Assembly (NCBI GenBank): GCA_965217775.1
Contig: CBDCJH010000002.1
Span: 1,248,001-1,312,000, forward strand
Origin: Acidobacteriota bacterium
GTDB taxonomy: Bacteria; Acidobacteriota; UBA6911; RPQK01; JAJDTT01
Direction of reading: 5' to 3'
Length of the DNA stretch: 64,000 bases
The notes beneath the pieces are model-generated. The model did no database searches and was not told where the DNA came from. It saw only the letters and a list, made by a program, of their open reading frames with translations. Positions 4,765 through 39,649 of this stretch are shown piece after piece (position 1 is the stretch's first letter; the number at the start of each line of letters is the position of its first letter). A program made the position numbers and the translations under genes.

Positions 4765-4814
4765 TGAACCGGGAAAGGATTCGTTGAGAGTCGTGATCTT
4801 AGCAGTCCGCGCAC

Positions 4815-4859
4815 GATGCAGGGACAGTCGAATGCCGTGACGACTTTGGCCACGGGCTG
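4815..4859. repeat. Terminal remnant of MITE family 2
   Basis: GATGCAGGGACAGTCGAATGCCGTGACGACTTTGGCCACGGGCTG is a near match to the reverse complement of 39257-39301. Confidence 0.8.
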
Positions 4860-24412: not shown

Positions 24413-24458
24413 CAGCCCGTGGTGAAACTCGCGCGAGCACCGAGACCGTTCCTGCGCC
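24413..24458. repeat. Opposite terminal remnant of MITE family 2
   Basis: CAGCCCGTGGTGAAACTCGCGCGAGCACCGAGACCGTTCCTGCGCC is a near match to the reverse complement of 39369-39414. Confidence 0.8.
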
Positions 24459-36778: not shown

Positions 36779-38782
36779 TCAACGCCCCCAGAGTCCGCGG
36801 CCGGCGGCGCGTGCCTCCTGCTCCAGTTGTCGGAACCTGTCGACATGCTCGAACCGGCTCCGTGTGTTCACCCGGGCATATCCCTGCCGGATGATCTCTG
36901 CATTGACGAAGGTTCCGTCCTGGAGATGCAGGTAGCCGAGAAACCGGCCATAGACGTCGACGCCGACCGCGCTCCAGGTCACCGCTTTTCCCTCCAGGTA
37001 TTCCACCGCCCAATCTCTGGCCCGTCGTCCCGCGCGCCGCCGACGCTCCGGCGCATCCACCCCTTTGAACCGCACGCGGAAACGGCGGCACATGCTGGCG
37101 ATCTCGACCGTGTCGCCGTCGATCACCCTGAAGATGCGTCCCGCTGCGGCCGTCGCTGGTTCCATGGCGAGGGTCGAAAGTGCCAGGTCCGGAAGGCAGG
37201 ATCGTCCAATCAGAGCCAGGAGCAGCACCGCTCCGGCGCCTGCGCTCACGGTCCAGAATCGCCGCCGTCCCGAATTCGAGGCCGTTTCCCGCACGACCCA
37301 TGCCCTTTCGCCGAGGTCTGGAACCGATGCAGAGCCCGTCGCCCGGTACCGGCGGCGATTGAGCCTCGCGTTGCGGACGAAGACGTAGACGGCAACCGCA
37401 GCGACTGCGGCCACAGCTACCTCGGCCATGATCATTCGGACCGTGATCGACGACAACAACGGTGACGTGCGTTGCCCAATGGAAAGCCAGTCGACGACGC
37501 GGTCCTGCTGGCCGGAGTAGAAGAGCATCGTCGGAACCAGGAAGAAACCCATCAGTTGCGCGCGGCGCACCTTGAAGTAGCAAGGAATCAACCCGACGGC
37601 TGTCGCCGAGCCCAGGATCACCAGACCGCCTCCGCCCAGCAGCAGGTACGTGAGCACCGTCAGGAAGACGACGACGCTCCAGTTGAGCCCGATGTCGTCG
37701 ACGCTGCGGAAACCGGCCGCGAAACGCCGTCCCAGACGCCACATGATCAGGCAGGAGCCGGCGCCGGCGACAGTCATGAACAGGAGTATCTGAAGCAGGT
37801 CCGGGCGGGTGACGGAGCCACCCAGGATCTGCTCGACGGCAATCGACGCCCCGCTGCGACTCCGGCCAATGAGGTACAGCGCCACGATCGCGAACATCGC
37901 TTCGGAGGTATTCAGGGACGATGTCGTCACCAGATAGGCACGGTCCCGTTCATCGCCGGTCCCGCGGCGGCCGCGCCACCGTTCCAGCAACAGGAGCAGG
38001 GCTGCCGCATTGGCCCCCCCGAGCCCAGGTAACAGGCCGACCATCAGGCCCGCCAGGCCGCCCCGCCCCCCGGCCCAGGCAGCGCGGACTGCCGGGAGCC
38101 CCAATGCCGGCGAATTATTGGCCCGTCCGTCAGGAGCGGGAAGGCCGGAACCGCCGGCGGTGCCGATGGCAAACAGAAGACCCGCAACGCCGAACATCCC
38201 TGCCAGACTCGGAAACAGCGCATTCACCGGCGCGTCGGCGCCGCCGGCGACCAGAGGTGACCCGAGCACGGCGACTCCCAGCAGGCCGCTGGCCAGAAAC
38301 GTGACCAGCGACCAGGACCAGGGTCGGTCGGTGGCGATCAGGATGACCGACACCCCCGCCAGAACCAGGAACATCCAGGGATTGATCAGGCTTTCGACCG
38401 CACCGATGACGTTCCCCAACGTAAGCAGTGCGGCCACTACCAGAAGTCCGAGGATCAGGCCGGCGGCACTCCCCAAGACCGACAGCCGTATGGCCGCTTC
38501 TCCCTCGCCGCGCTTGACCAGCCGGTGTGCCGGAAGGAGGGCGAAAGTCTCGTCCCCCGGAACTCCGAGAAAGAGACCGGGGACCACGTCGAAGAAGGTG
38601 TGCGAGATGGCGAGAGAGCAGGTGAAGGCCAGCAGCGCCGACTAGTCGATGCCGATCGCGGCGCAACTCGCGCTTCCGGCCAGAAGCAACGCGGTGACCG
38701 TGTTGACGTGAATTCCGGGGACCAGGCCGGTGAGAATGCCGGTGAGGGTGCCGAGAAAAGAGGCGAGGGCGAGAATGATCAC
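36779..38782 (-). pseudogene. Archaeal-type TctA/DUF112 membrane protein fused to a C-terminal thermonuclease (SNase); interrupted by an in-frame TAG at codon 47
   Basis: Upstream of the ORF-track start the same frame reads VIILALASFLGTLTGILTGLVPGIHVNT..GID*SALL..SHTFFDVVPGLFLGVP; RSRSG motif; C-terminal VIDGDT..RFKGVDAPE..DVYGRFLG..GYA..EARAAGRGLW. Confidence 0.8.
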
Positions 38783-38785
38783 GGG

Positions 38786-39649
38786 TTAATCGGCCCTCAC
38801 GACCCTTTTCACGACCAAGGACGGCCGTCCCCGGTACTCGTCGACATCGGCGGTGACTACGATCCGAGCGCCGGACCTCAACAGCTCGACTTCACGGTAG
38901 GTCCGGTCCCCCTGAAAAATGATGCCCTGGACCGTTTCCCGCTCAGGTGCACGAGGGTCGGTGAACGTCAGACGCAGGTGGTGCCGGCCGCGCCGGCTCG
39001 TGAATGGTTCCACGCGGACCGCCCGCACCGGGCCTACCCTCAGGCGTTCCCCCTTCCGCAATGCCGCTTGGGCAAGTGGGACGGCTTGCCCGGATTCCTG
39101 TGTCCTCAGGACCAGGACGTGCGCGGCCGACAAGGGCCTGAGTTGCGGCAGACCGCCATAGCTTCCCAGGTTTCCCGTGACGCGGACGCTCTCACCGCGG
39201 ACCGGCTTGACGGGCAACGGACCCAGCGAGGGAAACACCGGCACGTCAAGGTATATCAGCCCGTGGCAAAAGTCATCACGGCATTCGACCGTCCCTGCAT
39301 CCCGGCGGACGGCGTTGCGATTCGGGCACATACTCCCGGTATGCACCCGAATCGCGCCTTGTCCGGCGGGCGCAGGAACGGTCTCGGTGCTCGCGGGACT
39401 TTCACCACGGACTGATATGTCCAATTCGGGATCGTGAAGTCTGACGACCAGGATTCTTTTCGGCGTCATCCGTACCGAAGTCACCCGGCCCTCAAACCGG
39501 AAGGTGGCGCCCGAGGATCGGGGATCGGCGATATGGCCGGAGGTCAGCCGAGGCAGATCCGCGTGTATGTCCGGATACCTCCACCATCGGTTCACGGCGA
39601 ACAGCAACATCAGGGCGGCGAGGCTGAGCACCAAAACCAGGGTCTTCAT
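38786..39649 (-). CDS. Membrane-anchored tandem OB-fold protein (nucleic-acid-binding-like) with a 54-aa MITE-derived insert
   Basis: N-terminal hydrophobic anchor; two OB-like units (FEGRVTSV..VRVTGNLGSYGGLPQL and IVVTADVDEYRGRPSL); stop lies 3 nt before the TctA-like start. Confidence 0.72.
   Translation of the reverse strand: MKTLVLVLSLAALMLLFAVNRWWRYPDIHADLPRLTSGHIADPRSSGATFRFEGRVTSVRMTPKRILVVRLHDPELDISVRGESPASTETVPAPAGQGAIRVHTGSMCPNRNAVRRDAGTVECRDDFCHGLIYLDVPVFPSLGPLPVKPVRGESVRVTGNLGSYGGLPQLRPLSAAHVLVLRTQESGQAVPLAQAALRKGERLRVGPVRAVRVEPFTSRRGRHHLRLTFTDPRAPERETVQGIIFQGDRTYREVELLRSGARIVVTADVDEYRGRPSLVVKRVVRAD
39257..39414. mobile_element. 158-bp MITE family 2, complete copy, inserted in-frame in the OB-fold gene
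   Basis: 18-bp TIRs CAGCCCGTGGCAAAAGTC / GACTTTCACCACGGACTG (15/18), ATAT duplication on both sides, internal hairpin GCGATTCGGG..CCCGAATCGC. Confidence 0.88.

What the first reader, a model, noticed from the sequence alone, without database searches (positions are those of the whole stretch)
36779..39649. OB-fold protein + TctA/DUF112 channel-thermonuclease fusion: candidate ComEC-independent DNA uptake or scavenging system
Seen: two minus-strand genes 3 nt apart. The first encodes a membrane-anchored protein with two OB-like units. The second encodes a multi-TM protein with archaeal-type TctA/DUF112 motifs (GLVPGIHVNT, SHTFFDVVP..FLGVP, RSRSG), two further hydrophobic segments, and an SNase domain (~36779-37145) retaining DGDT, R..GVDAPE and DxYGR. 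No TctB/TctC genes are adjacent. Established: bacterial TctA normally works with TctB/TctC to import carboxylates; SNase is a Ca-dependent nuclease; ComEC combines an OB domain, a membrane channel and a nuclease domain. Inference: the same three functions (bind, cut, translocate) are assembled here from unrelated parts, so this TctA-like branch may carry DNA or oligonucleotides rather than citrate.
Basis: partly seen in the sequence, partly recalled or inferred. Interest (0 to 1): 0.92.

Follow-up and report, generated by a model that had tools for sequence, protein, structure and literature searches.

The report
Broken bacterial OB–TctA–nuclease DNA-uptake cassette
A conserved bacterial gene pair (a DNA-binding anchor protein plus a transporter fused to a nuclease) matches the three parts that a methanogen needs to take up DNA, so it is probably a second, little-known route for importing DNA; the copy in this genome is damaged.

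Summary
The two minus-strand genes are real and form a conserved cassette. One encodes a single-pass membrane protein with two OB folds (38786-39649). The other starts 3 nt downstream and encodes an archaeal-type TctA-like permease with two extra helices and a C-terminal staphylococcal-nuclease domain (36779-38782).

The pair is adjacent in 29 of 29 bacterial loci carrying nine phylum-level labels. Nothing else is conserved nearby, and there is no TctB/TctC. Both proteins are homologous to an archaeal gene pair. In Methanococcus maripaludis such a pair, and a membrane-bound thermonuclease, are each essential for natural transformation (Fonseca 2023). The bacterial fusion therefore ties the three archaeal components into one machine. 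A complex prediction supports contact between the OB protein, the permease and the nuclease.

The most likely function is capture, cutting and import of extracellular DNA. Import of nucleotides only is the main rival.

In this genome the cassette is damaged. Codon 47 of the permease is TAG where 13 of 14 aligned relatives have Tyr. A 162-nt repeat element sits in the OB gene. Contigs from four related populations show neither lesion.

DNA transport itself remains unproven, and the elevator-type transporter motifs argue for caution.

The parts
38786..39649 (-). Gene for a single-pass membrane protein with two OB folds (287 codons here; 233 without the insertion)
   Evidence: ORF. PF01336 at aa 208-283. 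AF2 model with pLDDT 82 shows helix 2-22 and two barrels. Foldseek best matches are tandem-OB ssDNA binders. A homologue lies directly upstream of the TctA-like gene in 29 of 29 loci.
39581..39649 (-). N-terminal membrane anchor of the OB protein (aa 1-23)
   Evidence: Hydrophobic stretch. Helix 2-22 in the model. Predicted to pack against TctA-like helices 164-185 and 388-403.
39253..39414 (.). In-frame 162-nt insertion in the first OB fold: a 158-bp hairpin repeat (MITE-like) plus a 4-nt duplication (ATAT)
   Evidence: Absent from 21 of 21 homologues. Contigs of 4 of 4 runs join 39252 to 39415. There are 214 copies of at least 140 nt in the genome, and the fold energy is -96.4 kcal/mol. pLDDT is below 50 in the model. 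Removing it restores exact collinearity with L021.
38795..39052 (-). Second OB fold (aa 200-285)
   Evidence: PF01336 E 1.6e-8. Strands 202-285 in the model.
36779..38782 (-). Gene for the TctA-like permease with two extra helices and an SNase domain (667 codons, interrupted at codon 47)
   Evidence: The closest intact relatives are 96% (P0003) and 85% (P0006 = L021) identical. dN/dS against L021 is 0.14.
38642..38644 (-). In-frame TAG (codon 47) replacing a conserved Tyr codon
   Evidence: L021 has TAT. Four of 4 runs have TAC (place 38642).
37550..38767 (-). TctA-like (PF01970) transporter domain, aa 6-411
   Evidence: hhalign to the archaeal ~400-aa group gives E 3.4e-89.
38708..38752 (-). 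First G-x3-G-x3-G-x2-P-G-x-(H) motif (aa 11-25)
   Evidence: Columns G15, G19, P22, G23 and H25 are invariant and G11 nearly invariant in 43 sequences. The motif is defined in the passages read.
38018..38062 (-). Second G-x3-G-x3-G-x2-P-G-x-G motif (aa 241-255)
   Evidence: G241, G245, G249, P252, G253 and G255 are invariant. Motif as.
37196..37441 (-). Two additional membrane helices (aa 448-483 and 504-529) with a basic loop between them
   Evidence: AF2 helices. The loop carries 7 K/R in 33 residues.
36785..37138 (-). Staphylococcal-nuclease (SNase) domain, aa 549-666
   Evidence: PF00565. PDB thermonuclease E 2e-8 with DGDT, R, D.PE and YGR aligned. Foldseek TM 0.83 normalised to the target. 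D555, D557, R571, E579 and R613 are invariant.

Best explanation
This is a recently damaged copy of a self-contained, horizontally moving two-gene cassette that takes up extracellular DNA at the cytoplasmic membrane. It is the bacterial counterpart of the archaeal OB / TctA-like / thermonuclease set needed for natural transformation.

Shown here:
- The two genes are always adjacent.
- Their products are predicted to form one complex.
- The nuclease keeps its catalytic residues.
- Both proteins are homologous to an archaeal gene pair.

Inferred mechanism:
1. The OB protein is anchored by one helix beside the permease. It holds DNA at the outer face with its two OB folds, playing the part that TctC and TctB play for citrate.
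2. The Ca-dependent SNase domain is held on the same face by two extra helices. It cuts the DNA or degrades one strand.
3. The TctA-like domain keeps both ion-binding motifs. Driven by an ion gradient, it moves the remaining strand, or pieces of it, into the cell.

In this genome a TAG at codon 47 and a repeat insertion in the first OB fold have probably switched the cassette off.
For: Conservation of the cassette:
- An OB gene lies directly upstream in 29 of 29 loci (28 plus the window).
- Only these two genes are shared within +-10 kb: OB in 29 of 29 loci and TctA-SNase in 28 of 29. Every other non-overlapping cluster occurs in 5 loci or fewer.
- The ORFs abut or overlap.
- SNase is fused in 26 of 29 loci. 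It is a separate adjacent gene in L045. L031 is truncated. None was found in L048.
- Purifying selection: dN/dS is 0.14 for the permease gene and 0.23 for the OB gene.

Homology to archaea:
- TctA-domain profile against archaeal ~400-aa proteins: probability 100, E 3.4e-89, 405 columns.
- All 12 organism-named relatives are archaeal.
- A small single-helix OB gene lies within 3 kb of the archaeal gene in 44 of 80 loci, and immediately upstream in 26.
- Of those small OB proteins, 23 of 27 hit PF01336.
- OB profile against OB profile: probability 95.4, E 2e-8, spanning the helix and the first OB fold.

Genetics in print (PMC10133366, passages read):
- Deletions of the adjacent OB-fold/single-helix gene MMJJ_13020, the TctA-like gene MMJJ_13030 and the lipoprotein thermonuclease MMJJ_16440 each abolish transformation and are complemented.
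- A TctA-like homologue is also essential in Methanoculleus thermophilus.

Predicted complex:
- ipSAE 0.71 (runs 0.71, 0.71, 0.73); best of 3 controls 0.00.
- That mark was reached by 58 of 80 solved complexes and 2 of 110 mismatched pairs. These counts hold only roughly, because my own alignments were used.
- The runs agree in at least 90% of contacts, and partner pLDDT is at least 77.
- The OB helix contacts permease residues 164-185 and 388-403. The first OB fold contacts residues 417-445 and the SNase domain.
- No TctA-family structure exists in the PDB by sequence, so recall of a solved complex is unlikely.

Other support:
- Foldseek places the OB model with RPA-, SSB-, Teb1- and POT1-type tandem OB proteins.
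- In three UBP9 genomes the OB protein carries an N-terminal RecB/Cas4-like PD-(D/E)XK nuclease of about 600 aa ahead of the helix. That fits DNA arriving in the cytoplasm.
- An Excalibur Ca-binding domain follows the SNase in most relatives, which fits an extracytoplasmic nuclease.
Against: - The TctA-like domain keeps both G-x3-G-x3-G-x2-P-G motifs. A 2026 preprint assigns these motifs to Na+ binding in an elevator-type carrier of small anions. No elevator carrier is known to thread a polymer (recalled).
- SNase is a non-specific nuclease that can reduce DNA to small products (recalled).
- ComEC is present in this genome and in 18 of 29 cassette-bearing genomes, so a second DNA channel is not needed there.
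- No pilus, comEA or dprA gene is linked to the cassette.
- I could not align our proteins directly with MMJJ_13020 and MMJJ_13030. The link runs through other archaeal homologues and through the paper's description.
- The archaeal phenotypes do not prove that the TctA-like protein is the conduit.
- An archaeal SNase gene was not found near the pair in any of 80 loci.
- The copy in the window is broken, so nothing here can be tested on this strain.
Confidence: 0.5

Rival explanations
1. Nucleic-acid scavenging. The OB protein and the SNase capture and digest extracellular DNA or RNA at the membrane. The TctA-like carrier imports only the small anionic products (3'-nucleotides, dinucleotides or short oligonucleotides) as a source of P, N and C.
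For: - Both ion-binding motifs of an elevator-type small-anion carrier are invariant.
- The SNase catalytic set is intact, and an Excalibur Ca domain is common.
- The OB (PF01336) plus SNase combination is known from secreted nucleases such as B. subtilis YhcR (recalled).
- ComEC coexists with the cassette in 18 of 29 genomes.
- Extra SNase genes lie beside the cassette in L037, L043 and L045.
Against: - The archaeal homologues are required for transformation, that is for entry of intact genetic information, which nucleotide import would not explain.
- The UBP9 fusion places a cytoplasmic RecB-like nuclease on the OB protein.
- No nucleotidase, phosphatase or salvage gene is linked.
Confidence: 0.27
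2. A membrane-anchored surface nuclease (turnover of eDNA or biofilm matrix) whose TctA-like part carries an ordinary small solute such as a metal-citrate complex, or merely anchors the enzyme. No nucleic-acid-derived substrate crosses the membrane.
For: - The PF01970 match is well above the cut-off.
- TTT systems carry citrate with divalent cations (abstract and passages), and SNase needs Ca2+ (recalled).
Against: - No TctB or TctC is nearby, and no TctC is found in the genome.
- The domain is separated from canonical TctA by a starred branch of length 3.24 + 3.24. It scores 154 bits to PF01970 against 399-524 bits for canonical ones.
- The TctA part is the best-conserved part (dN/dS 0.11), so it is more than an anchor.
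- The OB partner is conserved in 29 of 29 loci.
- This reading leaves the archaeal transformation phenotype unexplained.
Confidence: 0.08
3. A barrier against foreign DNA (a defence-like function). The complex destroys DNA at the cell surface before it can enter.
For: - The SNase domain hits a PADLOC candidate model (PDLC01096, E 3.7e-14).
- The distribution is patchy and HGT-like: 2 of 9 genomes of the genus and 3 of 61 Bryobacterales carry it, and taxonomy is scrambled in the tree.
- Copies are repeatedly broken (the window, L036, L037).
Against: - An outward-facing nuclease cannot reach injected phage DNA.
- There is no PADLOC hit for the OB protein or for the TctA-like part.
- The archaeal homologues promote, rather than prevent, DNA entry.
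Confidence: 0.05

Closest known systems
Methanococcus maripaludis MMJJ_13020 (OB-fold, one helix) / MMJJ_13030 (TctA-like, 11 helices) with thermonuclease MMJJ_16440 (Fonseca et al. 2023, PMC10133366)
   Same: The same three parts are present. The OB gene lies directly beside the TctA-like gene. The OB protein has a single membrane helix and the PF01336-type fold. The nuclease is membrane-bound and of SNase type. There is no TctB/TctC. The TctA-like and OB proteins of other archaea are demonstrably homologous to ours.
   Different: In bacteria the nuclease is fused to the permease through two extra helices, the OB protein has two OB folds instead of one, and an Excalibur domain is often added. 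A role in transformation is shown only in the archaea.
Tripartite tricarboxylate transporter TctABC / BctCBA (TTT family)
   Same: PF01970 fold, both G-x3-G-x3-G-x2-P-G motifs, and a small membrane partner predicted beside the same (scaffold-like) helices.
   Different: There is no TctB or TctC. The branch is deeply separate. The partner is a nucleic-acid-type OB protein rather than a carboxylate-binding protein. A nuclease is fused.
ComEC (with ComEA, and EndA/NucA in some species), the bacterial transformation channel
   Same: It has the same logic of an OB fold, a membrane conduit and a nuclease on the outer face. ComEC's OB fold binds DNA and enhances its nuclease (abstract of PMC12455585).
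   Different: The folds are unrelated: the cassette has no PF03772 or beta-lactamase-like domain. ComEC is a separate gene in this genome. The proposed conduit is a secondary-carrier fold, not the ComEC channel.
Secreted or wall-bound OB + SNase nucleases such as Bacillus subtilis YhcR (recalled, not checked here)
   Same: A PF01336-type OB fold is combined with a Ca-dependent SNase domain outside the cell.
   Different: Those are single soluble or wall-anchored enzymes without a transporter. Here the OB fold and the nuclease sit on two polypeptides organised around a permease.

Membership tests
TTT family, TctA subunit (PF01970) | Match to the PF01970 profile above its gathering score over the full length | tested here: met
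   152 bits against a cut-off of 28.9, covering profile positions 2-422 of 423.
TTT family, TctA subunit (PF01970) | Two G-Hy3-G-Hy3-G-Hy2-P-G-Hy-G motifs | tested here: met
   aa 11-25 (last G replaced by an invariant H) and aa 241-255 (exact). The columns are invariant or nearly so in 43 sequences. The motif is as quoted.
TTT family, TctA subunit (PF01970) | Encoded with TctB and TctC partners | tested here: not met
   No such genes were found within +-10 kb in 29 loci. There is no PF03401 hit in the whole genome. PF07331 (TctB) was not searched.
TTT family, TctA subunit (PF01970) | Groups with canonical TctA in a tree | tested here: not met
   The 7 canonical TctA from the same phylum lie across a starred branch of length 3.24 + 3.24 (quick search). 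PF01970 scores are 154 against 399-524 bits.
TTT family, TctA subunit (PF01970) | Transports tricarboxylates | not testable with these tools
   Needs a transport assay.
Archaeal OB / TctA-like natural-transformation pair | TctA-like domain of the ~400-aa archaeal type | tested here: met
   hhalign probability 100, E 3.4e-89. Profile hits of 225-300 bits. All 12 of 12 organism-named relatives are archaeal.
Archaeal OB / TctA-like natural-transformation pair | Adjacent gene for a single-helix PF01336 OB protein | tested here: met
   The window and 28 other loci. The archaeal counterpart is present in 44 of 80 loci and is homologous at E 2e-8.
Archaeal OB / TctA-like natural-transformation pair | Membrane-bound SNase-type nuclease acting with the pair | tested here: met
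   Fused in 26 of 29 loci and adjacent in one. Catalytic residues are kept.
Archaeal OB / TctA-like natural-transformation pair | Direct sequence relationship to MMJJ_13020 / MMJJ_13030 | not tested
The link rests on the paper's description.
Archaeal OB / TctA-like natural-transformation pair | Required for natural transformation | not testable with these tools
   Genetic test needed in a bacterium with an intact cassette.
ComEC/Rec2 | Competence membrane domain PF03772 | tested here: not met
   Absent from both proteins. A separate ComEC gene lies at G000:C2:938789-939715.
Staphylococcal nuclease (PF00565) | Profile match plus the Ca-binding and catalytic residues (D21, R35, D40, E43, R87 in S. 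aureus numbering, which is recalled) | tested here: met
   E 4.6e-18. The aligned residues are D555/D557, R571, D576, E579 and R613. They are invariant or nearly invariant.

The most novel reading that the evidence does not exclude
A TctA-type, ion-driven carrier is a processive DNA translocase. It would be a second DNA-import conduit, independent of ComEC, shared by archaea and by scattered bacteria. In this reading the tethered tandem-OB protein replaces the soluble binding protein (TctC) and the small subunit (TctB), and the fused nuclease disposes of the second strand. The bacterial fusion would then be the Rosetta stone that identifies the long-sought archaeal DNA transporter complex.
Probability: 0.4. 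Interest if true: 0.92.

Novelty: new variant of a known kind. Interest (0 to 1): 0.8.

Why it matters
How archaea import DNA is an open question. They lack ComEC, and a TctA-like protein has been proposed on genetic grounds alone. The bacterial family found here joins the three genetically defined archaeal components (OB protein, TctA-like protein, membrane nuclease) by gene fusion, strict adjacency and a predicted common interface. That is independent comparative evidence that they work as one machine.

It also suggests that some bacteria have a DNA-uptake or DNA-scavenging route outside the ComEC paradigm. Several closed genomes with the cassette show no ComEC. The family gives soluble domains and intact orthologs on which DNA binding, cutting and transport can be tested directly.

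For this genome the practical message is that both genes should be annotated as disrupted.

Tried and rejected
- Foldseek of the whole fusion model against the PDB was swamped by staphylococcal-nuclease variants.
- A crude hydropathy scan over-split the helices. I used the AF2 helices instead.
- The positive-inside rule for the OB anchor was inconclusive: 0-1 K/R before the helix against 0-3 after it in most homologues. The outside location of the OB folds rests on the UBP9 fusion, on Excalibur domains and on the complex model.
- PADLOC gave only an SNase-domain hit.
- ComEC complementarity:
  - ComEC was not found in 11 of 29 cassette genomes.
  - In a Bryobacterales sample it was found in 0 of 3 genomes with the cassette against 44 of 58 without. 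A hypergeometric probability calculated by hand is 0.019.
  - The three genomes may be one clade and some genomes are incomplete, so I treat this as a lead only.
- DprA family: hits in 26 of 29 genomes. The ComEC-less genomes have only weaker hits (E 1e-36 to 1e-59, against 1e-64 to 1e-80). This could mean loss of the classical competence set, and it neither supports nor refutes the reading.
- SNase genes were not found near the archaeal pair in any of 80 loci.
- I considered TAG read-through or recoding and rejected it. It is a single TAG at a conserved Tyr codon, and close relatives have TAC or TAT.
- An assembly error at that base cannot be excluded, because the source reads were not identified.
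- Supplementary files of PMC10133366 were closed. They may list homologues or strains that bear on the link.
- The tallies include G016, an unpublished genome. It contributed one canonical TctA hit (411 bits), was left out of the tree, and no claim depends on it.


Full report
**What is in the window.** On the minus strand an ORF of 287 codons (39649-38789, stop TAA 38788-38786) is followed after three bases by a GTG at 38782. That GTG opens a 667-codon frame running to the stop at 36781-36779.

- Read through with X at its one internal stop, the second product matches Pfam TctA (PF01970) over its whole profile: aa 6-411, E 2.4e-44, 152 bits.
- It also matches SNase (PF00565) at aa 569-665, E 4.6e-18.
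- The first product matches the nucleic-acid-type OB fold PF01336 at aa 208-283, E 1.6e-8.
- NCBIfam adds only sub-threshold nuclease models.
- An AF2 model of the OB protein (pLDDT 82) shows an N-terminal helix (2-22) and two beta-barrels. Its best Foldseek matches in the PDB are tandem-OB DNA binders: Teb1 AB at 2.8e-6, p204 HIN with dsDNA, Thermus and Deinococcus SSB, Oxytricha TEBP, Pyrococcus RPA and POT1.
- An AF2 model of the closest intact fusion protein (P0003, pLDDT 78, pTM 0.76) shows the TctA-like helical bundle, two further long helices (448-483 and 504-529) and an SNase fold. The SNase fold matches staphylococcal nuclease at TM 0.83, normalised to the target.
- Aligned to S. aureus thermonuclease, the DGDT, R, D.PE and YGR elements are kept. 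D555, D557, R571, E579 and R613 are invariant in 43 family members.

1. Codon 47 of the second gene is TAG (38644-38642).
   - Of 14 aligned relatives, 12 have Tyr and one has Phe. The most distant (P0101) does not align there.
   - The ortholog L021 has TAT.
   - Contigs of four public runs that are about 98-99% identical to the window all read TAC (place 38642).
   - The next possible start (GTG 38587) would remove the first 65 residues, including the first conserved motif.
2. The OB protein has 54 extra residues (about aa 81-134) that are absent from 21 of 21 aligned homologues, including the 83%-identical L021 protein.
   - The DNA is a 158-bp element flanked by a 4-nt duplication.
   - It folds into a near-perfect hairpin (-96.4 kcal/mol).
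   - It occurs in 214 copies of at least 140 nt in this genome, 102 of them at 95% identity or more.
   - In all four runs a contig joins 39252 to 39415 without it.
   - Removing it restores exact collinearity with L021.
   - In the model the insert is disordered (pLDDT below 50).

Between the window and L021, dN/dS is 0.14 for the permease-nuclease gene (0.11 for the TctA part, 0.10 for the SNase part) and 0.23 for the OB gene. The genes were therefore under selection until recently, and the damage is young. An assembly error at the single TAG base cannot be excluded.

**The cassette is a conserved family, not a one-off.**

- A search of 5.8 billion protein clusters returned 102 relatives. 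By my count from that table, 84 carry both PF01970 and PF00565, and most also carry a C-terminal Excalibur Ca-binding domain.
- The genome (6.43 Mb, 2 contigs) has one copy and no other PF01970 gene.
- Among 40 relatives, only one other genome of the same genus (G005, intact, 84% identical) has the fusion. The remaining hits are SNase-only.
- In a scan of one genome per species, 28 loci were found. Their labels are Acidobacteriota (several orders), Thermodesulfobacteriota, Binatia, Rhodothermales, Longimicrobiales, three gammaproteobacterial MAGs, UBP9, Vulcanimicrobiota and Deinococcaceae.
- A homologue of the OB protein lies immediately upstream in all 28 and in the window. The two ORFs abut or overlap.
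- I clustered all ORFs within 10 kb. Only these two genes are shared: 29 of 29 loci and 28 of 29 loci. Apart from ORFs that overlap the two conserved genes, every other cluster occurs in 5 loci or fewer.
- There is no tctB, tctC, pilus or dprA linkage, and no TctC (PF03401) anywhere in the genome.
- SNase is fused in 26 of 29 loci. It is a separate adjacent gene in L045. L031 is cut by the contig end. None was found in the L048 locus.
- Inside the fused clade the tree does not follow taxonomy, and only 3 of 61 sampled Bryobacterales carry the cassette. Both points fit horizontal transfer.
- Other copies are also broken. L036 is split by an IS with a DDE transposase. L037 is split into three ORFs.

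**Relationship to archaea.**

- A profile of the TctA-like domain (A2) was scored against 1.84 billion representatives. It found 2296 proteins at E 1e-3 or better.
- After about 25 representatives of the bacterial family come hundreds of proteins of roughly 390-415 aa, scoring 225-300 bits over profile positions 1-413.
- Every one that carries an organism name is archaeal: Euryarchaeota, Undinarchaeota, Woesearchaeota, Nanoarchaeota (12 of 12).
- Profile against profile, the two groups match with probability 100, E 3.4e-89, over 405 columns.
- Canonical TctA genes of the window's own phylum score 399-524 bits to PF01970 against 154 for ours. In a tree (quick IQ-TREE search, 58 rows) they lie across a starred branch of length 3.24 + 3.24.
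- In the same tree the 22 archaeal rows form one starred clade and the bacterial OB-linked rows are unresolved at its base.
- In 80 metagenomic loci of the archaeal type, a gene of 113-130 codons for one helix plus one OB fold lies within 3 kb in 44 loci:
  - immediately upstream on the same strand in 26;
  - elsewhere upstream in 18;
  - not found despite at least 450 nt of upstream flank in 25;
  - not assessable in 11.
- Of 27 such proteins, 23 hit PF01336. Their profile matches the bacterial OB profile across the helix and the first OB fold (probability 95.4, E 2e-8).
- The gene pair is therefore shared between the two domains of life. Bacteria have a second OB fold, and usually the nuclease fusion.

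**What is in print.** Fonseca et al. 2023 (PMC10133366; passages read) screened transposon mutants of Methanococcus maripaludis.

- The TctA-like homologue of Methanoculleus thermophilus is also essential.
- Deletion of MMJJ_16440, a predicted lipoprotein thermonuclease, likewise abolishes transformation.
- The authors propose that the TctA-like protein may be the archaeal DNA transporter, since archaea lack ComEC, TctB and TctC.
- I could not fetch those sequences, so their identity with the family defined here rests on the matching description.
- Full-text searches found no other paper that links these parts, and none that describes a bacterial fusion. The searches were TctA with nuclease or OB-fold, TctA-like with transformation, TctA with DNA transporter and TctA with thermonuclease. 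Only the library of those searches was covered.

**How the parts probably fit.**

- A complex prediction for the intact L021 pair gave ipSAE 0.71 (three runs: 0.71, 0.71, 0.73), with 0.00 as the best of 3 controls.
- That mark was reached by 58 of 80 solved complexes and 2 of 110 mismatched pairs. These counts hold only roughly, because my own alignments were used.
- The runs agree in at least 90% of contacts, and partner pLDDT is at least 77.
- No TctA-family structure is in the PDB by sequence, so recall of a solved complex is unlikely.
- The OB protein's helix packs against permease residues 164-185 and 388-403.
- The first OB fold touches residues 417-445, the stretch after the last TctA-like helix, and the SNase domain (540-568, 604-615, 642-644).
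- The model thus puts both OB folds and the nuclease on one face of the membrane. That this face is the outside is inferred from four points:
  - the Excalibur domains;
  - the basic loop (7 K/R in 33 residues) between the two extra helices;
  - the Ca dependence of SNase (recalled);
  - three UBP9 genomes in which about 600 residues without a signal peptide, containing a PD-(D/E)XK nuclease (PF12705; TIGR03491 RecB-like at 7e-11, below its cut-off), precede the helix of the OB protein.
- A 2026 preprint on Bordetella BctCBA (abstract and passages read) models TTT carriers as elevator-type. It places TctB beside the scaffold domain (residues 145-231 and 393-507 of BctA). It assigns the G-Hy3-G-Hy3-G-Hy2-P-G-Hy-G motifs to Na+ binding.
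- Our family keeps both motifs (aa 11-25 and 241-255).
- The OB protein's helix binds roughly where TctB would. This is an approximate, unaligned correspondence.
- I therefore read the OB protein as a tethered stand-in for both TctB and TctC, with nucleic acid as its ligand. This is inference.

**Mechanism and rivals.**

- **Best reading (0.5).** The tandem OB folds capture DNA, the fused SNase cuts it or removes one strand, and the ion-driven TctA-like domain imports DNA. This is the arrangement that ComEC achieves with unrelated folds. According to the abstract read, ComEC combines an OB fold that binds DNA, a nuclease domain and a channel.
  - In favour of polymer import: the archaeal transformation phenotypes and the UBP9 fusion to a cytoplasmic RecB-like nuclease.
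  - Against it: the carrier-type motifs, the non-specific nature of SNase, and the presence of ComEC in 18 of 29 cassette genomes, including this one.
- **Main rival (0.27).** Scavenging: the same capture and cutting, but only nucleotides or short oligonucleotides are imported.
- **Minor rivals.** A surface nuclease joined to an ordinary solute carrier (0.08), and a barrier against foreign DNA (0.05).
- **A weak lead.** ComEC was not found in 11 of 29 cassette genomes, several of them closed chromosomes. In Bryobacterales it was found in 0 of 3 genomes with the cassette against 44 of 58 without.
  - Kinship is not controlled.
  - The ComEC-less genomes also show only weak DprA-family hits.

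**Comparison, novelty and limits.**

- The proteins are members of Pfam TctA and SNase by profile. They fail two defining features of a TctABC transporter, namely the partners and the tree position. They are not ComEC.
- They are best filed with the archaeal OB/TctA-like transformation genes, as a bacterial variant with a fused nuclease and a doubled OB fold. I rate this a new variant of a known kind.
- The known kind is itself defined only genetically. The comparative evidence here (fusion, strict adjacency, predicted interface) is new support that the three archaeal components form one machine.
- Limits:
  - no direct alignment to the Methanococcus proteins;
  - no comparison of the membrane fold with solved structures;
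  - topology is inferred;
  - there is no functional data for any bacterial member;
  - the copy in this window is disrupted.

Noticed in passing
window 39253-39418; partial copies at 4802-4859 and 24413-24458: A 158-bp, almost perfectly palindromic repeat (fold energy -96.4 kcal/mol) flanked by 4-nt AT-rich duplications (ATAT here, TTAA in other copies). It occurs 214 times (at least 140 nt) in the 6.43-Mb genome, 102 times at 95% identity or more. It looks like a very successful MITE-like element that can sit in frame inside genes.
   Followed up: partly
L041:7423-9990, L042:7480-9987, L044:1126-3630: In three UBP9 genomes the OB protein is 834-855 aa long. An N-terminal PD-(D/E)XK (RecB/Cas4-like, TM0106-family-like) nuclease region of about 600 aa precedes a weak membrane helix and the OB folds. 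This would place a cytoplasmic nuclease on the same machine.
   Followed up: partly
L036:7308-11698: The permease-nuclease gene of a Bryobacterales genome is split by about 2.1 kb that holds a 619-aa ORF with a DruA-like region and a DDE transposase. This is another independently disrupted copy of the cassette.
   Followed up: partly
L037:9992-13138; L043:2992-3570; L045:3780-4466: L037 has its fusion gene broken into three ORFs, with a further SNase+Excalibur gene downstream. L043 has a second stand-alone SNase gene after the fusion. L045 has an unfused TctA-like gene with a separate SNase gene beside it.
   Followed up: partly
genomes G155, G160-G162, G164, G165, G168, G171, G175, G178, G179: In these cassette-bearing genomes no ComEC (PF03772) was found. 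They also show no DprA-family hit, or only weak ones (E 1e-36 to 1e-59, against 1e-64 to 1e-80 in the ComEC-positive ones). The classical competence set may be lost together.
   Followed up: partly
one search hits P0130, P0139, P0162, P0166, P0173, P0186, P0191, P0223, P0233, P0235: Some relatives of the archaeal-type TctA-like proteins are 460-580 aa long and match the profile in two stretches. This suggests insertions or extra domains in the middle of the carrier. I did not look at them.
   Followed up: no
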